Source: Candidatus Nanopusillus sp. (GTDB lineage: Archaea; Nanobdellota; Nanobdellia; Nanobdellales; Nanobdellaceae). From it: a DNA stretch of 5,488 nt. Below are positions 1 to 5,484 of the stretch, one piece after another (positions within the stretch are counted from its first letter, which is position 1; each line of letters begins with the position of its first letter). A model generated the notes under the pieces. The model was given only the letters and a program-made list of their open reading frames with translations. It made no database searches and was not told where the DNA came from. A program made the position numbers and the translations under genes. Location of the stretch: positions 1-5,488 of the forward strand of contig JAWDMD010000030.1 of assembly GCA_046536775.1 (NCBI GenBank), read 5' to 3'.

Positions 1-1
1 T

Positions 2-106
2 ATGGGAGAAATCATAAAGGCAAGGAGACCTGAATATATAGCTCAGGAGATAGCAATGAAGGTTCATTATTATAATATTATGAGAAGTATGACGGAGGCT
101 TATTAA
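2..106 (+). CDS. 3' end of an unidentified protein-coding gene (partial, enters from the left edge)
   Basis: The frame starting at position 2 is open from the window edge to TAA at 104-106 (...GEIIKARRPEYIAQEIAMKVHYYNIMRSMTEAY*). Frame 1 is stopped at 31-33. The fragment is too short to identify. Confidence 0.3.
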   Translation: MGEIIKARRPEYIAQEIAMKVHYYNIMRSMTEAY

Positions 107-169: not shown

Positions 170-616
170 ATGATAAAGTATTGCCCTAAATGTGGAACAC
201 CTAATCAGAATGATGCTAAATTTTGCATTAAGTGTGGTTACCAGTTCCCACAGGAAGAACAAGTTTCAAAGCAACCACCTCAACAAATTGCTCAGTCCTC
301 CCCTCAGCCTATTCAACAAACAGCTCAGCATTCTCAACAAAAAATTCCAACTTCCAACCCAAAGCAAAAAAAGGGAAATGATATAGATTTGGAGCTTGCG
401 TTATTACTTATATTGGGTATTATAGGTATTATAATTCCATTTGAATTTTTTATTAAGTTATTTATAGTGTTAGGTATATTATTTATTATTTGGCGTATTT
501 ATAAAATTAATGAATATTGGGATCAAGGGCTAAAGAAATCCAGAATTGAGTATCAAGAGATCACAGAAAAATTAACTCAAATAATAGACCAGCTATCGCA
601 GAATAAATCAAAATAA
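170..616 (+). CDS. Small zinc-ribbon membrane protein: N-terminal CxxC...CxxC zinc ribbon, Gln/Pro-rich linker, hydrophobic TM region
   Basis: 148-codon ORF. The N-terminus [26 protein letters not shown] has a CPxCG-x11-CxxCG zinc-ribbon pattern. A low-complexity Q/P-rich linker follows ([23 protein letters not shown]). Then come about 45 hydrophobic residues ([33 protein letters not shown]), enough for two TM helices. A TATA-like tttaaata lies about 25-30 nt upstream of the ATG, and a T9 tract follows the stop. Confidence 0.75.
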
Positions 617-814: not shown

Positions 815-842
815 TAAATACCTGTTAAAAAATATTTATTTT

Positions 843-1100
843 GGGACTTCCAACCCTAAGACTCCCTCTCCATACTTGTCGGAAGGAATTTTGCCGGGCA
901 GGTTATATTCGCAATCCAAAACTGAAATTAAGCATTTTTACAGTATCTATTATTGCATTGTAAAATTCTTTTCTATCCTCAAGCGATTAGGCTGGAGAAA
1001 AACAGCCAGCAGTTCCCGAAGTTCACCCTCCTCCCGAATGGCATTTCCCTCAGGGTGCTCAGGAACAGGTTCAGCCACGGAAACCTAGATTAGAGGAATA
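843..1100 (-). ncRNA. GC-rich module D: candidate structured non-coding RNA segment (family unknown). Two GC-rich blocks (843-905, 985-1100) flank an AT-rich core.
   Basis: It is C-rich on +, so G-rich on -. The only ORF (876-1088) gives a low-complexity S/R/P-rich translation. Short motifs are shared with modules A, B and C: cagccacgg at 1072-1080, tagagga at 1091-1097, gccgggcagg at 893-902. The segment ggcaggtta at 897-905 is the exact reverse complement of taacctgcc at 1388-1396. A TATA-like tttatatt (- strand, 1104-1111) lies just upstream. This is the weakest of the four modules. Confidence 0.3.
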
Positions 1101-1108
1101 CGTAATAT

Positions 1109-1116
1109 AAAAAAAA
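1109..1116 (-). terminator. Oligo-T (T8 on the - strand) at the 3' end of module A; overlaps a TATA-like box for module D
   Basis: An A8 run on + at 1109-1116 reads as T8 on -, directly after the GC-rich sequence ...cagcacagccctgta. The - strand reads ttttttttatattacg, which contains tttatatt. Confidence 0.35.
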
Positions 1117-1118
1117 TA

Positions 1119-1398
1119 CAGGGCTGTGCTGTTTTCTGTTCGTTTGTGCTGGGGTGAATGCCTGGATCCATGATTTTACAAATCTAGGGGACCGAGCCAC
1201 GGTAGTTCCATGTTCTTGTACCCCTGTGGTCCGGTTGGACAGGACCACCGTAACCTCCTTGGCCCCGTACCACAGTGGCCCATTAGCCCGGGGAGTACAG
1301 GGGAACTCAGCCCGATTCTGAGCTTCGGAAATCCAGGGAATCAGTGTCCAACTGCCCAATCCTATCCGGGGTCTGGCAGAGCTGTGGTAACCTGCCTT
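1119..1398 (-). ncRNA. GC-rich module A: candidate structured non-coding RNA (family unknown)
   Basis: Hand counts of four 60-nt rows give 52-65% GC, against 13-23% in the adjacent gene. Overlapping ORFs on both strands (1090-1359 -, 1210-1419 +) give implausible P/G/R/S-rich peptides. There is a perfect 7-bp long-range pairing of 1161-1167 (cctggat) with 1331-1337 (atccagg), enclosing about 163 nt. A perfect 7-bp hairpin pairs 1226-1232 with 1242-1248. An 8-bp helix with one bulged A pairs 1263-1270 with 1295-1303. A 5-bp hairpin pairs 1306-1310 with 1318-1322. The strand call rests on - strand T-tracts and the G-rich - strand. Confidence 0.45.
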
Positions 1399-1451
1399 AA
1401 GAATAAAAAACAGAAATAGAATTCGCCCCTAAAAAAATCTGTAAAGGCAGG
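1391..1451. repeat. Perfect 8-bp inverted repeat (cctgcctt / aaggcagg) closing the AT-rich spacer between modules A and B
   Basis: The segment 1391-1398 is the exact reverse complement of 1444-1451. The enclosed 45 nt (1399-1443) are AT-rich and contain both - strand oligo-T tracts: A6 at 1405-1410 and A7 at 1431-1437 on +. Confidence 0.6.
1431..1437 (-). terminator. Oligo-T (T7 on the - strand) at the 3' end of module B; first strong T-tract downstream of the 657-aa gene
   Basis: An A7 run on + at 1431-1437 reads on the - strand as ...ctcctgcctttacagatttttttagggg. Between the gene stop (1809) and this site, the - strand has no T-run longer than 4. Confidence 0.4.
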
Positions 1452-1790
1452 AGATCTATTAGGGGTCTCAGGAAAACCATTGAAAACTCAGAGAGCCACC
1501 TAGCCAGGGCTTTCAGTCCCTTGCTACTCCGTCCTCAGGTCTCCCAGCTAGCAGTCCCAGACTTTCCAGCCCTGCCCCCAGCCGGGCTCAACCAGATTTT
1601 TCAGTACCCATGCCCAAACCCATGTTTTTCAGCCCGGCCAGTTAGGCGACCCCATAAGACAGTCGGTGTGTCCAGCGGTACTCCCAGTCTACAGGTCCTG
1701 TTGCCCTGATCTTCTGCGAAGTCCACAGAATTATAAAGCTAAGCTGGGGGCAGAAGGCGTTGCAGAATGTGTATCAGTATCGGTCTGTTT
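1444..1790 (-). ncRNA. GC-rich module B: candidate structured RNA, possibly the structured 3' UTR of the 657-aa gene (family unknown)
   Basis: Hand-counted rows give 48-60% GC, and the module starts about 20 nt after the gene stop. A perfect 11-bp long-range pairing joins 1572-1582 (ctgcccccagc) and 1743-1753 (gctgggggcag), enclosing about 160 nt. A 5-bp hairpin pairs 1712-1716 with 1726-1730. The + strand has two internal T5 runs (1597-1601, 1625-1629) that would hinder + strand transcription in an archaeon. The + strand is C-rich. Collinear sequence blocks are shared with module C. Confidence 0.5.
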
Positions 1791-1808
1791 TGTTTGAATA
1801 AATTAGAA

Positions 1809-3782
1809 TTAAATAAAATGCAGAATCCCCAAAAGCTGCAGAATTCCCAATAATATTAATGCCAATGTTAATACTATTAACAATCCAGTAATTTCTTTAT
1901 TTTCTTCAGCTATTTCATAGTTTGAAAACAATTGAAGTCTATCCAAAAGCACCTTATGATAATAGTTTAATTTAAATGTATCTTTAATATTTTCGAATGT
2001 TTCTCTAAAAAATTTGGCATCGACAATATCTATATCATAATAAAATTCAAAGTCAGAAATAGCCTTTTGTGTAATTTTTTTAAGTTCTTTAGGACGAGGT
2101 TTTTTCTTTGATAAATGTTCTTCTATTTCGTTATTATATAAAATAAAGTAAGTGGCACTAGTTGTTGCCATATCTCCTAACAAAATTGACCAAGCTATAC
2201 CCCATTTTAACCCACACTCCTTAAAATTGATTATATTTTGATAAAAATCCTTCATATTACATAAATCCAAAAGAGTTACCCCACAATAATAATTTTCAAA
2301 AACAATTTCTTCAGGTACTACAGATCCATTTTCTTTAATTTCTTTTATAATGGTTTTAAAAGTTGTATCTTTCTTTTTATAATGTCTTTTTCTCACCCCT
2401 AAAAATTCTGATATATCTTCAATAAAATAGTCAGGAATTTTTTTCAAATCATAATTTTCAAGTTCCGGTCCTTTATCCAATACTATTTGTGAATTTTGGA
2501 AAATAATAAATGTTTGCTGTTTTTTGATATTTTCAATAAATCTATCAGGGTTCAGTGACTTTTTATATAATTTTATTATTTTATAAAAACTTTCTTTAAT
2601 TTTTCTTTTGTTTCTTAATATAATATCTAATATAAATTCAAAAATTAGATGTTTTTCATTCTCATCATATTCTTTATTATATTTTTTTATAATAATTTCG
2701 GATAATTTATTGTAGATTACGTAATCTACTAGTTTTTTTAAATAATTTATTGTTTTAATTTTTTTATATATATTTTCTCTAATTGGATAAACGATTTCAT
2801 TCCATATATTTAGCAATAAAAAGTCTTCAAAAGTAACAAATTCTTTTATTTCCTTTTTCCCTTCGCTCTCTACCTGTAATTTTCTTATATATTTGTTTCC
2901 GTAAATATTTTCTTTATCGCCTTTAATTTCATTCCCGTTTGAATTATTTTCATTTTTCCATTCAACATAAAAATCTTCAATATTTCTTAAAAAATAATCA
3001 TAGTCAAAATTCTTATCATTTTTTATTAAACGCTCTATAACAAATGTAACCGTTGCCACCCTCGAAATTGTATTATTATCATCATCATAATCAACATGTA
3101 AATAACCTTTGATGTTAGCATCAAATGTCTGCTCTTTGATAATGGGCGTTTGATTTACATAATTTTTATTAGTAATGTAAGCCATTTCATTTTTATATTC
3201 AAAGGAATAAGTTACCGGCTTCGAATCTTCAATTTCATAAAAATTTAAGTTTTCATTAAAAAACCTGATATGTATAAATCCCTCCCTACCTTTAGGGGTT
3301 AACACTTCATTTTTTCTTTCAAATAAATATAATAGGTTAATATCAACTTCTTCTTTTTCCTCAATTTTTTTCTTATCAATAATATATTCCTGAATATAAT
3401 CGTCAACAGTTTCAGGAGATAATAACAAAAAATTTTTAGGTATTAACTCCAATAAGTGTTGTTTATTAATCTTACTTATTTCCTTTCCTTTGCTTATATA
3501 TTTTTTAAATTCTTCAAAATTTATATCACTAATTTCTCCATTATTTGTTAAATCAACGCCAATGGTTATAATTCTTGCCCCATCTTTAATTTTTCTTTCA
3601 TATTTTTTTGGGTTTAATACTGATGCCTTCTTTTTATATTCCTCTTCTATAATCTGTTGCTGTTCTGGGGTTAATTGGTCTTTATTTTTTTCATAAATTT
3701 CCTTAATTGAATAATATTCGTATGGTGTAGTAATATTTTTGATCTTTTCCAGAAGATCTTCAAAGTTAGTTAATGTTAACAT
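1809..3782 (-). CDS. 657-aa hypothetical protein with a C-terminal transmembrane anchor (orphan, no recognisable catalytic domain)
   Basis: This is an uninterrupted 657-codon ORF in DNA so AT-rich that stop codons should be frequent by chance. The protein is rich in K, E, N and I. The last ~27 residues (ITGLLIVLTLALILLGILQLLGILHFI) form a tail-anchor-like TM helix. A second hydrophobic stretch is GLKWGIAWSILLGDMATTSATYFILY. The ATG at 3780-3782 sits about 23-26 nt downstream of a TATA-like box, suggesting a leaderless mRNA. Confidence 0.85.
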   Translation of the reverse strand: MLTLTNFEDLLEKIKNITTPYEYYSIKEIYEKNKDQLTPEQQQIIEEEYKKKASVLNPKKYERKIKDGARIITIGVDLTNNGEISDINFEEFKKYISKGKEISKINKQHLLELIPKNFLLLSPETVDDYIQEYIIDKKKIEEKEEVDINLLYLFERKNEVLTPKGREGFIHIRFFNENLNFYEIEDSKPVTYSFEYKNEMAYITNKNYVNQTPIIKEQTFDANIKGYLHVDYDDDNNTISRVATVTFVIERLIKNDKNFDYDYFLRNIEDFYVEWKNENNSNGNEIKGDKENIYGNKYIRKLQVESEGKKEIKEFVTFEDFLLLNIWNEIVYPIRENIYKKIKTINYLKKLVDYVIYNKLSEIIIKKYNKEYDENEKHLIFEFILDIILRNKRKIKESFYKIIKLYKKSLNPDRFIENIKKQQTFIIFQNSQIVLDKGPELENYDLKKIPDYFIEDISEFLGVRKRHYKKKDTTFKTIIKEIKENGSVVPEEIVFENYYCGVTLLDLCNMKDFYQNIINFKECGLKWGIAWSILLGDMATTSATYFILYNNEIEEHLSKKKPRPKELKKITQKAISDFEFYYDIDIVDAKFFRETFENIKDTFKLNYYHKVLLDRLQLFSNYEIAEENKEITGLLIVLTLALILLGILQLLGILHFI

Positions 3783-3804
3783 AAATAATATATTATATCA
3801 GTAA

Positions 3805-3812
3805 AATATAAA
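3805..3812 (-). promoter_or_regulatory. Candidate archaeal TATA box (tttatatt) with a purine-rich BRE-like agaaaaa upstream, for the 657-aa gene
   Basis: The - strand reads ttagaaaaatttatattttactgatataatatattatttATG. The box centre lies about 26 nt upstream of the ATG, which would give a leaderless transcript. The background is AT-rich, so a chance match is possible. Confidence 0.4.
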
Positions 3813-3883
3813 TTTTTCTAAAATAATTCATTGTTAGTTTAAATGCCATAATATATACAATGTTGCTATATGAATCAGAATTT

Positions 3884-4066
3884 TAGAGGGACCAGCATGG
3901 TCTGATAAGGTGATAATCAGTTTAAGGGACCCGCCGTACCAGAGCCACTGCCCCAACCCCCTTATCGGTGGTCAAGCCCTGCCGTACCCAGCCCCACCCG
4001 GATCCAGCCGGGTCAAATTCAGTCAATTTCAGTGAGTCTGGGGTCATGGGGGTGGCGAATGCAGGG
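3884..4066 (-). ncRNA. GC-rich module C: candidate structured RNA upstream of the 657-aa gene; a shorter relative of module B (and partly A)
   Basis: Hand-counted rows give 55-63% GC and there is no ORF. The + strand is strongly C-rich (3931-3960 has 17 C against 5 G). A perfect 6-bp hairpin pairs 3996-4001 (acccgg) with 4008-4013 (ccgggt). A 12-position pairing joins 3939-3950 and 4030-4041, giving 10 bp with a central 2x2 mismatch. A 6-bp pairing joins 3977-3982 (ccctgc) and 4061-4066 (gcaggg). Blocks shared with B are agccctgcc, ccagccggg, tcaa, tttcagt and gtaccca(t)gccc. The strand is uncertain, because TATA-like boxes exist on both sides. Confidence 0.5.
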
Positions 4067-4320
4067 ATAAAAATATGCAATTTGATTAATGTGCTTGAAT
4101 TCTATAATGAGGAGAAGAAGGAGAAGAAAAAAAAGCTTCATAATTAATCATCTTGGTTTTTATTAGAAAAGCAATTAATTTTTATTTCTCATGCTTATAA
4201 AAAGCATTAAAGGCATTTTTTAAAACAAGGAAGGAGTAAAAACATGTTTTCATTAACCGATTTGGATAATGTATTCTAATCGTTTTTCCCCCTTTTTGAA
4301 AAACTGATAAAAACATAGAA

Positions 4321-4343
4321 TTGACAAAATAGCATTTTGTCAA
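4321..4343. promoter_or_regulatory. Perfect 23-bp palindrome (ttgacaaaat-agc-attttgtcaa), candidate dimeric DNA-binding-protein operator
   Basis: The arm 4321-4330 is the exact reverse complement of 4334-4343, with a 3-nt centre. It lies in the ORF-free region between module C and the integrase gene. Confidence 0.5.
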
Positions 4344-4616
4344 TCAATTAATTATGGATCTTGAGGGTATTTATATACCTCGGAGGAAATTTTCTAGGCT
4401 AAAAGATAGAAAAATATGAAAATTCCTATATAAAGTATATTCGAAAAATATTGAACTTTTACATAAACATAATTGATACACTTACCCAAAGAGAATTTAA
4501 AAATACTAAATTTCACAAAAAAAGTGGATCATCAACACATATTATACGAATTATGAGGTAAATTGATAAAATAAGGGAAGGTATCTGTTGCAGATGCAAA
4601 ATACGCATCATATACA

Positions 4617-5318
4617 ATGATGAACACAATGAGGTCACTGAGGCACTTAATAAACGAGGGAGTAGATCTAAACAACAGAGAATCATTTAAGAACTGGATT
4701 CTGAAAATGAAAAGAAAAGGGGTAATGGACAAGACTCTGAACATATACATAAAGGCATATAACAGTTATCTTGAATGGAAGGGCGAGGAAAAAATAAAAC
4801 CTTATAAGGAGATGAGGGCATTTAAGACGGCCAGGGCTACAGAAGAGGATTACAAAAAACTGATGGATGCCTGCTATGGATATACTGAAATAAGAAATAA
4901 ACTTATGATAGACCTTTTATTCAAAACTGGGATCAGGTACAGGGAATTAATAAATATCAGGCTAGAAGACATAAAGGAAGATACTTTAATAGTAAGGGGC
5001 AAAGGGCAGAAAATTAGAGTAGTACATCTCCCAAGATCTGTAAGAGATCTACTCAAAGAGTATTTAAAAATAAGAAAAGCAAAACCTGGGAACAATTTCC
5101 TTTTTGTAAATTATTATGGAGACCAGTTGACATATGCGGGAGGTCATAAAATACTGAATGAAATTGCAAAAAGGGCAGGGGTACACTTTTCGCCACACTT
5201 GGCGAGGCGGTTTTAAACAAGAAAATTATATCAGGAGGGCTATGATATTGAAAAAATCCGCCTGTTGCTTGGTCATGAAAAGCTAGATACCACAAAAACA
5301 TACCTCAAAGTGGATTAA
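4617..5318 (+). pseudogene. Tyrosine recombinase / phage-type integrase (XerC/D-like) interrupted by one in-frame TAA at 5214-5216
   Basis: The conserved recombinase motifs appear in order: LLFKTGIRYRE (Arg I), RGKGQKIRVVHLP (Lys beta-hairpin), SPHLARRF (His-x-x-Arg). After the TAA, in the same frame, comes TRKLYQEGYDIEKIRLLLGHEKLDTTKTYLKVD*, which carries His II and the catalytic Tyr. The stop sits where the consensus H-x-L-R-H-x-F-A-T has the Ala. It therefore removes the catalytic Tyr from the 199-aa product. Confidence 0.85.
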
Positions 5319-5362: not shown

Positions 5363-5411
5363 ATATTTAAATCCTGAGGTACAAAACCAGACAACTCCGT
5401 CTAGTATCTTA

Positions 5412-5484
5412 CGCCCCGGACGGGATTTGAACCCGTGTCACGAGCTCGACAGGCTCGTATGATAGGCCACTACACTACCGGGGC
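5412..5484 (-). tRNA. tRNA-Asp (anticodon GUC), archaeal type, CCA not encoded
   Basis: The - strand reads GCCCCGGTAGTGTAGTGGCCTATCATACGAGCCTGTCGAGCTCGTGACACGGGTTCAAATCCCGTCCGGGGCG (73 nt). The acceptor stem is 7 bp (GCCCCGG/CCGGGGC). The anticodon stem CGAGC/GCTCG carries the loop CTGTCGA, giving anticodon GTC. The T arm is ACGGG-TTCAAAT-CCCGT and the discriminator is G. The next bases are TAAG, so no CCA is encoded. The GCCC start, GTGTAGTGGCC D-arm and TTCAAATCC T-loop are typical of archaeal tRNA-Asp. Confidence 0.92.

What the first reader, a model, noticed from the sequence alone, without database searches (positions are those of the whole stretch)
1809..3782. 657-aa tail-anchored orphan protein with extreme AT bias
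No catalytic or nucleotide-binding motif is recognisable by eye: no P-loop, no CxxC pairs, no RT or nuclease signatures. The architecture is a large K/E/N/I-rich soluble region. A hydrophobic segment (GLKWGIAWSILLGDMATTSATYFILY) follows, then about 85 helical residues and a terminal TM helix. The gene is markedly more AT-rich than the neighbouring integrase and zinc-ribbon genes, which suggests a foreign origin. Weak features only: an EF-hand-like loop DLTNNGEISDINFEEF, which has three extra residues compared with the canonical 12-residue loop, and a single R-x4-H (REGFIH). A large soluble sensor fused to a membrane anchor within a mobile island fits an abortive-infection-type effector, but that is conjecture.
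Basis: partly seen in the sequence, partly recalled or inferred. Interest (0 to 1): 0.65.

Follow-up and report, generated by a model that had tools for sequence, protein, structure and literature searches.

The report
Tail-anchored protein on mobile archaeal cassette
The 657-residue gene is real and belongs to a previously undescribed archaeal family of membrane-anchored proteins with a confidently predicted fold that matches nothing known; in hot-spring archaea it is the only gene of a ~2.8-kb cassette that moves between genomes, once into a CRISPR array, and its function is still unproven.

Summary
The ORF at 1809-3782 (-) is real. An open frame this long has a chance probability of about 1e-31. 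It is intact in most of 27 related loci, with median dN/dS 0.44.

It is not an orphan. There are 24 close homologues, and a profile search found 71 cluster representatives, all named ones archaeal.

Only the C-terminal helix (628-657) is TM-grade. The "hydrophobic segment" is a moderately hydrophobic conserved helix. The EF-hand is not supported.

Pfam, NCBIfam, PHROGs, PADLOC and PDB sequences give nothing. An AlphaFold model (pLDDT 85.6) has no Foldseek match in PDB or BFVD.

New findings:
- The gene has its own conserved BRE/TATA promoter and GC-rich non-coding flanks.
- This unit recurs in at least six genomic contexts. These include a Thermoproteales-like chromosome and, in four independent contigs, the inside of a CRISPR array.
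- In the array it is flanked by a 36-nt direct repeat. That fits recombination between a spacer and a ~2.86-kb circular form.

The gene's 24% GC equals the nanoarchaeal genome average, so AT-richness alone does not show foreign origin. Neighbourhoods are rich in defence and mobile-element genes. A membrane-acting conflict effector is the best guess (~0.35), not shown.

The parts
1809..3782 (-). Gene for the 657-aa tail-anchored protein. Predicted layout: N-terminal 3-helix domain (1-56); beta-rich alpha/beta domain (65-317); coiled-coil hairpin insertion (318-408); alpha/beta subdomain (412-514); conserved helical C-terminal module (525-627); TM helix (628-657).
   Evidence: ORF. Intact in most related loci. 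dN/dS median 0.44. AlphaFold model with pLDDT 85.6. Hydropathy. Family alignments.
3801..3819 (-). Archaeal BRE/TATA-type promoter AGAAAAATTTATATTTTAC. The TATA centre lies ~26 nt before the ATG, which implies a leaderless or near-leaderless mRNA.
   Evidence: Nearly identical in all loci examined, including those whose homology starts only here (L019, L020, L023). The promoter role is inferred from the consensus and was not measured.
3829..3941 (-). Conserved upstream segment starting at TTAAAC (about 3925). It contains the inverted repeat CTGATTATCACCTTATCAG. Homology between loci repeatedly ends near 3925-3941.
   Evidence: Homology boundaries. Sequences. Circle junction in L007 compared with L042.
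3885..4080 (.). Upstream GC-rich non-coding block (56% GC). It is present upstream of the gene in most loci, but its sequence differs between groups of loci.
   Evidence: Fold z-score ~0 on both strands.
1432..1800 (-). Downstream GC-rich block A (52% GC). It is present in most loci. Positions 1611-1646 correspond to the 36-nt sequence duplicated at the CRISPR-array insertion.
   Evidence: No fold-energy signal. No covariation. ORFs within it change frame between loci.
1431..1437 (-). T-run (T7 on the gene strand) at the end of block A. It is a likely archaeal transcription stop and a recurrent homology boundary.
   Evidence: Sequence. Conserved CAGATCTTTTAG in the alignment. Boundary at 1432 in about a dozen loci. 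The terminator role is inferred.
840..1400 (.). Two further GC-rich non-coding blocks: C at 840-1095 (45% GC) and B at 1125-1400 (55% GC). AT-rich spacers with T-runs separate them. Only a subset of loci share them.
4617..5318 (+). Decayed XerA-like tyrosine recombinase gene, divergent from the cassette gene. It has an in-frame TAA at 5214-5216 (Tyr in intact relatives) and a TAA at 5316-5318 (Gln in intact relatives).
   Evidence: Pfam Phage_integrase. Translation. Intact relatives at >=90% identity, 281-300 aa. NCBIfam XerA_Arch 161 bits, below the cutoff of 220.
5412..5484 (-). tRNA-Asp (GUC). The reading frame of intact integrase relatives runs on into its antisense strand.
   Evidence: The 3' half matches Sulfolobus plasmids.
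170..616 (+). Zinc-ribbon protein with a P/Q-rich linker and a hydrophobic C-terminal region. It is a neighbour only in the window-type context.
1..106 (+). 3' end of an IS4-type DDE transposase gene. It is complete (308 aa) in the longer sister contig L006.

Best explanation
SHOWN:
- The ORF encodes a real, selectively maintained protein of a so far undescribed archaeal family.
- Family members have no N-terminal signal or TM segment. They have one or two C-terminal TM helices. A conserved helical membrane-proximal module sits just before these (consensus G.RW..SW..LL..M....F..YN..IE.H...L..T..A..DF..YYD.D...FE.AK..F...Y..L..RL.LFS..EI.E).
- The bulk of the protein therefore faces the cytoplasm and is tail-anchored.
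- No polar residue is invariant across the family, which argues against an enzyme.
- In Yellowstone-type hot-spring archaea the gene is the only gene of a ~2.5-2.9 kb unit: its own BRE/TATA promoter, the gene, and GC-rich non-coding blocks.
- This unit is found in many unrelated genomic contexts.

INFERRED, good support:
- The unit is mobile and has existed as a ~2.86-kb circle.
- In four contigs it lies between two CRISPR repeats, flanked by a 36-nt direct repeat that is part of its own block A. A single crossover between a spacer and its protospacer on a circular element would produce exactly this.
- A nearly identical unit lies in a 44% GC Thermoproteales-like chromosome. It has therefore crossed between lineages.

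INFERRED, weak; my committed guess:
- The protein is a non-enzymatic conflict-system effector of the defence or exclusion type.
- The variable N-terminal and beta-rich domains would sense a cue.
- The conserved amphipathic/hydrophobic helix module next to the anchor would then act on the membrane, by permeabilisation or depolarisation.
- This would benefit the carrier cell or the cassette.
For: Real gene:
-.

Family and topology:
- 24 close homologues.
- 71 profile hits, 45 of them at E<=1e-10.
- The names found are Nanopusillus, Thermoplasmata, Aenigmatarchaeota, Conexivisphaera and 'archaeon'.
- The C-terminal module is aligned across about 60 representatives.
- 42 of 45 long members have C-terminal TM segments, and 42 of 45 have no N-terminal hydrophobic segment.
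- Only W531 (and Y582) are near-invariant.

No known relatives:
- Sequence searches.
- Fold searches with a pLDDT 85.6 / pTM 0.84 model.

Cassette:
- Conserved promoter.
- GC-rich flanks in nearly all loci.
- Recurrent boundaries.
- CRISPR insertion, reproduced in four samples, with Csx1 next to the array.
- The circle is collinear with the linear copy in L042.
- The Thermoproteales context appears in two independent assemblies.

Conflict context:
- Decayed integrase plus tRNA plus IS in the window.
- Neighbours elsewhere include a type IIG RM (E=0), N6/N4 methylase, LmuB-, DndD- and JetC-like ATPases, MADS components, Csa3, CsaX, Csx1, PIN, AAA_21, NERD, ParB_N-DUF488, integrases, a resolvase and transposases.
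Against: - There is no direct evidence of function, toxicity, oligomerisation or expression. Read mapping was not available for this window.
- PADLOC has no model that matches.
- The neighbourhood sample is small, about 8 independent contexts. There is no background statistic. SMC-like hits to LmuB can be generic.
- No conserved partner gene was found.
- The segment at 529-548 is not hydrophobic enough to be a classical TM helix. Membrane insertion is speculation.
- I could not inspect model coordinates, so burial of that helix is unknown.
- A 2.86-kb circle with a single gene would, if autonomous, need that gene for replication. That points to the rival explanation.
- The circle is inferred from junctions. 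It has not been observed.
Confidence: 0.35

Rival explanations
1. Replication or maintenance protein of a minimal plasmid-like replicon. The ~2.86-kb circle would be autonomous. The GC-rich blocks would be its origin or cis sites. The single 657-aa protein would be a new, membrane-tethered initiator or partition protein.
For: - The circle inferred from the CRISPR junctions carries one ORF and ~0.9 kb of non-coding DNA.
- From my own knowledge, the smallest archaeal plasmids encode a single large Rep of about this size.
- CRISPR targeting marks the unit as an invader.
- The non-coding blocks travel with the gene.
Against: - There are no HUH, primase-polymerase, Walker A or helicase motifs.
- No polar residue is invariant in the family.
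- The strongest conservation is in a membrane-proximal helical module and the TM anchors.
- Distant relatives lie in chromosomes without GC-rich flanks.
- There is no hit in 72,556 plasmids or 50,697 phage/virus records.
Confidence: 0.15
2. Cell-contact or host-interaction protein of the ectosymbiont. Examples would be a membrane-tethering or lipid-handling protein at the Nanoarchaeota-host interface. Variable regions would track different hosts.
For: - The close subfamily comes from Yellowstone hot-spring metagenomes with Nanopusillus labels.
- Nanoarchaeota cannot make lipids and must take them from the host (PMC4935971).
- Segments with dN/dS of 0.8-1.0 exist.
- A copy is present in a Thermoproteales-like genome, a lineage proposed as a nanoarchaeal host.
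- The weak Foldseek top hits are curved-sheet lipid-binding folds, but all are non-significant.
Against: - There is no signal peptide and the bulk is predicted cytoplasmic.
- The family also occurs in free-living-type archaea: Thermoplasmata, Conexivisphaera, and contigs of 0.5-1.5 Mb.
- The gene was not found in the scan of GTDB species-representative genomes, a scan that confirms only close relatives of a single-protein query. It is strain-variable.
- The Foldseek hits have probability <=0.25.
Confidence: 0.12
3. Membrane or virion protein of an integrated virus. The window would be a provirus remnant at tRNA-Asp, and the protein a viral membrane or terminal-fibre-type component.
For: - An integrase lies next to a tRNA gene.
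- One weak Fusello_VP2 Pfam flag appears on a 52-aa call in the sister contig.
- CRISPR targets the unit.
Against: - The flagged region is an IS transposase in the intact sister contig.
- There is no PHROG hit.
- There is no BFVD fold hit.
- There is no tblastn hit in phage/archaeal-virus records.
- There is no relative in IMG/VR contigs by the pattern scan.
- No capsid or other viral hallmark gene occurs in any of the loci.
Confidence: 0.05

Closest known systems
Transmembrane effectors of abortive-infection and signalling defence systems (for example the 2TM/SLATT-type effectors of CBASS-like systems, or RexB-type membrane proteins)
   Same: - A large cytoplasmic part is joined to one or two TM helices.
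- Phyletic distribution is sporadic.
- Location is among restriction-modification, CRISPR-associated and mobile-element genes.
- The conservation pattern is non-enzymatic.
   Different: - There is no sequence match to any PADLOC or Pfam model.
- There is no fold match.
- The anchor is at the extreme C-terminus, preceded by a unique conserved helical module.
- The gene stands alone, with no partner sensor or signal-generating gene.
- No phenotype is known.
Integron gene cassettes, including the archaeal integrons of Ghaly et al. 2022 (PMC9668308)
   Same: - A single-gene unit recurs in different places.
- A circular form is inferred.
- Non-coding recombination-prone DNA follows the gene.
- A divergently oriented tyrosine recombinase gene lies next to it in the window.
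- The unit starts at TTAAAC, which fits the TTRRRY start of cassettes.
   Different: - The recombinase scores 58 bits against the integron-integrase model, whose cutoff is 265. It is XerA-like, and no IntI-type extra domain was detected.
- The unit is 2.5-2.9 kb and has its own promoter.
- The flanks are 200-900 nt GC-rich blocks, not 57-141 nt attC hairpins, and show no fold signal.
- There are no tandem cassette arrays.
Spacer-protospacer recombination between CRISPR arrays and mobile elements (described for staphylococcal phages by Varble et al. 2019; cited from memory, not read here)
   Same: An element is integrated between two repeats. It is flanked by two copies, 33 of 36 nt identical, of a spacer-length sequence that belongs to the element itself.
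   Different: - The setting here is a thermophilic archaeal array with Csx1.
- The whole small element appears to be fixed at the old end of the array.
- It persists in four samples while the array continues to differ in other spacers.
tRNA-targeting integrative elements of Crenarchaeota (SSV-type and pNOB8-type integrases)
   Same: - A tyrosine recombinase lies beside a tRNA gene.
- The reading frame of intact relatives overlaps the tRNA 3' half.
- That tRNA segment matches Sulfolobus plasmids; in one of them (NC_010365.1) the match lies within the annotated integrase gene, in the others under no annotated feature.
   Different: - The recombinase is XerA-like and is inactivated in the window.
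- No second att copy was found in the available contigs.
- The cassette also occurs without this integrase.

Membership tests
EF-hand calcium-binding proteins | A helix-loop-helix with a 12-residue loop whose positions 1, 3, 5 and 12 are conserved acidic or polar ligands. | tested here: not met
   - The canonical loop pattern is absent.
- The segment is strand-loop-strand-helix in the model.
- Ligand positions change to K, R or G in homologues.
Known anti-phage defence proteins (PADLOC-DB 2.0) | A significant match to a model of a known or candidate defence protein. | tested here: not met
   0 families at E<=1.
Any curated protein family (Pfam-A, NCBIfam, PHROGs) | A match at or near the curated threshold, in the query or in family members. 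| tested here: not met
   - The query has no hits.
- Scans of 46 and 71 family members found no shared family. One member alone matched DUF4007.
Proteins of known structure | Sequence or fold similarity to a PDB chain or to a predicted viral structure. | tested here: not met
   - Profile against PDB sequences: best E=0.038 and 0.63.
- Foldseek with the pLDDT 85.6 model: best E=0.18 in PDB and 0.16 in BFVD, TM<=0.26.
- AFDB and searches of single domains were not available.
Reverse transcriptases, polymerases, rolling-circle Rep proteins, P-loop NTPases | Conserved YxDD/GDD hairpin, HUH plus Tyr motifs, or Walker A. | tested here: not met
   - There is no HUH or Walker A.
- YDDD at residue 232 varies between homologues (NRDN, NEEK).
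Tail-anchored membrane proteins (a topological class, not a homology family) | No N-terminal signal or TM segment, and a hydrophobic helix within the last ~30 residues. | tested here: met
   - Kyte-Doolittle score is 2.8 at 628-657, and nothing reaches 1.6 elsewhere.
- The same pattern, with 1-2 helices, holds in 42 of 45 long family members.
- This is a prediction only. DeepTMHMM was not available.
Integron (cassette plus IntI) | An IntI with the IntI-specific extra domain; attC sites of ~57-141 nt that fold as single strands; tandem promoterless cassettes. | tested here: not met
   - The integron-integrase model scores 58 bits against a cutoff of 265.
- The flanking blocks are 200-900 nt with no fold signal.
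- The unit has its own promoter.
- Defining features were taken from PMC9668308.
Structured non-coding RNA (for the GC-rich flanks) | A match to an RNA family, folding energy better than shuffles, or covarying base pairs. | tested here: inconclusive
   - There is no Rfam match at E<=1.
- z-scores are -0.77, -0.36, +0.33 and +0.56.
- RNAalifold gives a covariation term of +0.48, with 3 of 77 pairs showing double changes.
- The sequences are 80-95% alike, so power is low.
- No transcript data were available.
CRISPR array (locus L007 and its sister contigs, not the window) | Regularly spaced identical repeats with unique spacers of constant length, and cas genes nearby. | tested here: met
   - There are nine 28-nt repeats spaced 67-73 nt apart, with unique 38-44 nt spacers.
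- Csx1 with CARF and HEPN domains is adjacent.
- The array is reproduced in four samples.
- No Rfam CRISPR-DR family matched.

The most novel reading that the evidence does not exclude
The unit is a minimal self-mobilising element of about 2.86 kb. It would shuttle between ectosymbiotic Nanoarchaeota and their crenarchaeal hosts. Its single tail-anchored protein, with a fold unlike any solved or viral structure, would be a new kind of membrane-tethered protein that mediates the element's own replication, its transfer across the cell-cell contact, or the exclusion of competitors.
Probability: 0.12. Interest if true: 0.85.

Novelty: new variant of a known kind. Interest (0 to 1): 0.6.

Why it matters
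- It defines a protein family found in several archaeal phyla with a confident predicted fold and no detectable relative. That makes it a clean target for structure and function work.
- It shows a one-gene cassette moving between a genome-reduced symbiont lineage and a lineage proposed as its host. This bears on how such partners exchange DNA.
- It gives a natural archaeal example of a whole element captured in a CRISPR array through a spacer. That is direct evidence that the unit was treated as an invader.
- It suggests that arrays can act as landing pads for mobile DNA.
- If the protein is a membrane-acting defence or exclusion effector, it would add an archaeal-specific class to a catalogue that is almost entirely bacterial.

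Tried and rejected
1. **Provirus reading.** It rested on a weak Fusello_VP2 flag in the sister contig. The region is an IS4-type transposase in the intact contig, and no viral hallmark was found.
2. **GC-rich flanks as known or clearly structured RNAs.** There is no Rfam hit, no fold-energy signal and no covariation.
3. **GC-rich flanks as a gene on the other strand.** ORFs of 92-172 aa exist there, but they use different frames in different loci.
4. **GC-rich flanks as borrowed virus or plasmid DNA.** There is no blastn hit. A 20-mer scan of GTDB genomes gave only a chance hit in a bacterium.
5. **Direct repeats between the upstream and downstream blocks as excision sites.** Only short low-complexity matches were found.
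6. **A second att copy of the tRNA-Asp 3' half.** None is present in the available contigs.
7. **First AlphaFold run, with 24 close sequences.** pLDDT was 53.5 and the model was unusable. It was replaced by a run with 71 sequences.
8. **Searching the word-indexed protein database with the family profile.** It returned only close relatives.
10. **Integron reading.** It was rejected on integrase score and site anatomy.
11. **Polymerase-like YDDD hairpin.** It is not conserved.
Full report
**1. The observation**

The window has one long ORF at 1809..3782 on the minus strand, ATG to TAA, 657 aa. Its GC content is 0.243 and GC3 is 0.19. The Zn-ribbon gene is 0.318 and the integrase 0.363. With the gene's own base composition a stop codon is expected about every tenth codon. 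The chance of 657 open codons is about 1e-31.

A motif scan found no Walker A, CxxC, HUH, HExxH or HD. REGFIH is the only R-x4-H. Hydropathy gives one TM-grade segment, 628-657, with a Kyte-Doolittle peak of 2.8. The description therefore holds, with three corrections:
- The protein is not an orphan.
- The inner segment is not TM-grade.
- The EF-hand is not real (see section 3).

**2. It is a conserved coding gene with relatives**

A search of 5.8 billion proteins gave 24 homologues of 48-99% identity in the best local alignment (56-89% over the whole alignment A1). All come from hot-spring metagenomes. One is named as a Candidatus Nanopusillus acidilobi MAG protein. A metagenome scan gave 27 loci. 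The frame is intact in most of them. A few have frameshifts or lack the N-terminal 58 residues.

Pairwise dN/dS over 15 intact copies has a median of 0.44 (105 pairs). The N-terminal 76 residues are at 0.06-0.15. Values of 0.8-1.0 occur only at residues 387-426, 467-505 and in the TM helix.

A profile of the 24 sequences was searched against 1.84 billion cluster representatives. It found 71 proteins at E<=1e-3 and 45 at E<=1e-10, with 15-36% identity to the query. Every name available for these is archaeal: Thermoplasmata, Aenigmatarchaeota, Conexivisphaera and 'archaeon'. All are 'hypothetical protein'.

**3. Anatomy of the protein**

The part shared by nearly all relatives is the C-terminal ~130 residues. 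It comprises a helix carrying G.RW..SW..LL..M, then DF..YYD.D, then RL.LFS..EI.E, which runs straight into one or two TM helices.
- Of 45 long representatives, 42 have C-terminal TM-grade segments.
- Of the same 45, 42 have no N-terminal hydrophobic segment.
- Two-helix members end in basic residues, for example ...KLRAFKFLFRKIF. By the positive-inside rule this fits a cytoplasmic bulk.
- Across 71 sequences only W531 (with Y582) is near-invariant. The His of IEEH and the second Asp of YYDID are replaced in distant members. This pattern fits a structural, channel or sensor protein better than an enzyme.

AlphaFold2 gave pLDDT 53.5 with the 24 close sequences. With 71 diverse sequences it gave pLDDT 85.6 and pTM 0.84. 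The predicted layout is:
- a three-helix N-terminal domain (7-56);
- an alpha/beta domain with very long antiparallel strands (65-317);
- a coiled-coil hairpin (318-408), which is an insertion present in only 4 of the 24 close sequences aligned and corresponds to the 15-19% GC stretch of the gene;
- a small alpha/beta subdomain (412-514);
- the helical C-terminal module.

The 'EF-hand' residues 78-93 form a strand-loop-strand-helix. Their acidic positions become K, R or G in homologues. The motif around REGFIH (LT.KGREGF.HIR) is conserved even in some distant members. Its role is unknown.

**4. No known relative by sequence or fold**

Sequence searches:
- Pfam, PHROGs, PADLOC and NCBIfam give nothing for the query.
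- Scans of 46 and 71 family members show no shared family.
- PDB sequence profiles give E>=0.038.
- tblastn against 50,697 phage/virus records and 72,556 plasmids finds nothing.

Fold searches with the good model:
- Foldseek has no hit below E=0.18 in PDB or 0.16 in BFVD, and TM-scores are <=0.26.
- The weak top hits are curved-sheet folds (hot-dog, START-like). At probability <=0.25 they are noise.

**5. The gene sits in a self-contained cassette**

In almost every locus the 23-25% GC gene is bracketed by GC-rich (45-60%) non-coding blocks. One block of ~150-200 nt lies upstream. Blocks totalling 300-950 nt lie downstream. In the window these are 3885-4080, 1432-1800, 1125-1400 and 840-1095.

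The gene has its own promoter. AGAAAAATTTATATTTTAC is nearly invariant, with the TATA centred ~26 nt before the ATG, even in loci where homology begins only there. This implies a leaderless mRNA. That is an inference from the archaeal BRE/TATA consensus.

Block A ends at a conserved T-run (window 1431-1437). Homology between loci repeatedly stops there, and it also stops at TTAAAC near 3925-3941.

I could not show what the blocks are:
- There is no Rfam hit.
- Fold z-scores lie between -0.8 and +0.6 on both strands.
- There is no covariation in 12 sequences.
- ORFs on the opposite strand use different frames in different loci.
- There is no similarity to viruses or plasmids.
- CTG-containing tetramers are about threefold enriched.
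- Distant family members have no such flanks, and their GC matches their genomes.

**6. The cassette is mobile**

(a) The flanking genes differ between loci:
- integrase, tRNA-Asp and IS (the window, L006, L008);
- a DNA methylase (L004);
- tandem tRNA-Gln genes (L042, L028);
- CRISPR-associated and ATPase genes (L002);
- others.

(b) In L027 and in the independently assembled L041, the same unit lies in a chromosome of about 44% GC. Nucleotide identity to the window is 78-88%. The chromosome carries ribosomal protein L34e, cytidylate kinase, Hel308, Trm112 and ABC-transporter genes. Its Hel308 is closest to Caldivirga (56%) and Vulcanisaeta (52-53%) among named proteins. Vulcanisaeta has been proposed as a nanoarchaeal host (PMC6142677).

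(c) In L007 the unit lies inside a CRISPR array. The array has nine copies of CTGCCATACTACTTAGTACTTCGGAATC spaced 67-73 nt apart, with unique 38-44 nt spacers. A Csx1 (CARF plus HEPN) gene lies beside it.
- Between the second and third repeats there are 2.9 kb instead of a spacer.
- This insert begins and ends with a 36-nt direct repeat, 33 of 36 nt identical, that abuts the CRISPR repeats.
- The 36-nt sequence is part of block A in all other loci (window 1611-1646).
- The insert is a circular permutation of the unit: distal block A, then an inter-region, then the upstream segment, the gene, and proximal block A.
- The inter-region is collinear with the DNA that follows block A in the Nanopusillus MAG contig L042. 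The permuted copy therefore equals L042 ~2350-5122 joined end to start.
- The same junctions occur in four contigs from four samples. One of them carries both flanks, and the arrays differ in other spacers. An assembly artefact is therefore excluded.

The simplest reading has three steps. An array owner had acquired a spacer from block A. The unit existed as a circle of ~2,856 bp. A single crossover between spacer and protospacer then integrated it. The circle itself has not been observed.

**7. The window's own context**

The integrase gene (4617-5318, +) is divergent from the cassette gene.
- Relatives at >=90% identity are 281-300 aa. One is named as a Nanopusillus acidilobi MAG protein.
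- Against them the window copy has TAA for Tyr at 5214-5216, between the RHR region and the LGH...Y motifs. It also has TAA for Gln at 5316-5318. It is a decayed gene.
- In intact relatives the frame continues into the antisense of the tRNA-Asp gene at 5412-5484.
- The 3' half of that tRNA matches Sulfolobus plasmids. In one of them (NC_010365.1) the match lies within the annotated integrase gene; in the others no feature is annotated under it.
- The enzyme is XerA-like, 161 bits against a cutoff of 220. It is not an integron integrase, 58 bits against 265.
- The first 106 bases of the window are the end of an IS4-type DDE transposase gene.

The window is therefore a decayed integrated region at a tRNA gene, and the cassette is one of its modules.

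**8. Composition and the 'foreign origin' argument**

The draft genome of the Yellowstone nanoarchaeon Nst1 has 24% G+C, and its host has 52% (PMC3655853). The gene's 24% is therefore the native nanoarchaeal value. In L042 the neighbouring TPR gene has 26%. In the window it is the neighbours (28-39%) and the non-coding blocks (45-56%) that deviate. AT-richness marks the unit as foreign only in the 44% GC crenarchaeal chromosome. The argument for it is not.

**9. What it most likely does**

Firm points:
- It is an accessory, sporadically distributed, non-enzymatic-looking protein.
- It is tail-anchored and faces the cytoplasm.
- It is carried on mobile DNA, and a CRISPR system recognised that DNA as foreign.

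Context: I scanned 61 neighbouring ORFs from about a dozen loci. They include the following:
- a type IIG restriction-modification enzyme (E=0) and an N6/N4 methylase;
- four SMC-type ATPases that hit Lamassu LmuB models (best 1.4e-35), and DndD- and JetC-like hits;
- MADS components;
- Csa3, CsaX and Csx1;
- PIN, AAA_21, NERD and ParB_N-DUF488;
- integrases, a resolvase and transposases.

This is the company kept by defence and exclusion genes. The sample is small, there is no background control, and SMC hits can be generic.

My committed guess, at about 0.35, is a stand-alone conflict effector. The variable N-terminal and beta-rich domains would sense a cue. The conserved helical module beside the anchor would then act on the membrane.

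Rivals:
- A replication or maintenance protein of a minimal replicon (0.15). The one-gene circle favours it. The motif-free, membrane-centred conservation and the flank-free chromosomal relatives count against it.
- A symbiont-host contact or lipid-handling protein (0.12). The cytoplasmic topology and the presence in free-living-type archaea count against it.
- A viral membrane or virion protein (0.05). This is largely refuted.

**10. Comparison with what is known, and novelty**

By analogy, the protein works most like the TM effectors of abortive-infection systems. The cassette behaves somewhat like an integron cassette. The array insertion looks like spacer-mediated recombination. It fails every membership test I could run for known protein families, for integrons and for known RNA families (see the membership table).

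I rate it as a new variant of a known kind, namely mobile-element cargo in a conflict context. Two caveats apply. The protein family itself has no detectable relative, and the function is unproven.

**11. Limits**

- There are no expression data.
- There is no access to model coordinates and no AFDB search.
- Most contigs are short and end near the tRNA.
- Taxonomic labels come from MAG binning.
- The neighbourhood analysis is not statistical.

Noticed in passing
window 840-1800 and 3885-4080; equivalent positions in L004-L031, L042: GC-rich (45-56%) non-coding blocks bracket the 24% GC gene in nearly all loci. They are enriched in CTG-containing tetramers. They show no Rfam match, no fold-energy signal, no covariation and no consistent reading frame. 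Their nature is unexplained; they could be cis sites, RNA or decayed DNA.
   Followed up: partly
window 4617-5318 and 5412-5484: The XerA-like integrase gene carries two nonsense codons, TAA at 5214 and TAA at 5316, relative to intact relatives of >=90% identity. In those relatives the frame runs on into the antisense strand of tRNA-Asp.
   Followed up: yes
window 5411-5460: The 3' half of tRNA-Asp matches 45-48 nt (85-89% identity) in seven Sulfolobus islandicus plasmids. In one, the match lies inside an annotated integrase gene. This suggests a shared attachment-site type.
   Followed up: no
L007 428-3879 (also L044, L045, L046): A CRISPR array with a 28-nt repeat and 38-44 nt spacers, next to a Csx1 gene, has the whole cassette inserted between two repeats. 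The insert is flanked by a 36-nt direct repeat derived from the cassette.
   Followed up: yes
L027 5297-7890 and L041 9692-11825: The same cassette lies in a ~44% GC Thermoproteales-like chromosome, in two independent assemblies. It is preceded by ~1.7 kb of 33% GC DNA with small ORFs. The gene there lacks the N-terminal 58 residues.
   Followed up: partly
L042 5317-6310: A series of six or more ~100-180 nt repeat units lies here. Each unit contains a promoter-like TTTATTATATATTTAAAAG and a GGGGAGTAC motif. It could be an array of small RNA genes.
   Followed up: no
L042 4895-5008: A degenerate ~26-nt tandem repeat (…CCACTGTACCC…GGGACCA…) lies within the GC-rich block downstream of the cassette.
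   Followed up: no
L042 1362-1949: A histidine-phosphatase gene with 50% GC sits in a contig binned to a 24% GC nanoarchaeon, just before two tRNA-Gln genes. It may be an import from a GC-rich partner.
   Followed up: no
window 3615-3782 (residues 1-56); P0080 / L047 1311-2465: The N-terminal three-helix domain is the most constrained part of the protein (dN/dS 0.06-0.15). It is also found at the start of an otherwise unrelated 384-aa protein, in a three-gene cluster of unknown function.
   Followed up: partly
window 2557-2763 (about residues 340-408): This 15-19% GC stretch encodes a coiled-coil hairpin. It is present in only 4 of the 24 close sequences aligned, and blastn homology between loci breaks here.
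   Followed up: partly
window 170-616: A zinc-ribbon protein with a P/Q-rich linker and a hydrophobic C-terminal half. It is 148 aa in all nine cluster members, and its function is unknown.
   Followed up: no
L037 2678-5328 (also L038, L039): In Aenigmatarchaeota MAGs the family gene overlaps a small upstream ORF (80-138 aa) by 8 nt and is followed by a 79-aa ORF. These are possible partner genes, not seen in other lineages.
   Followed up: no
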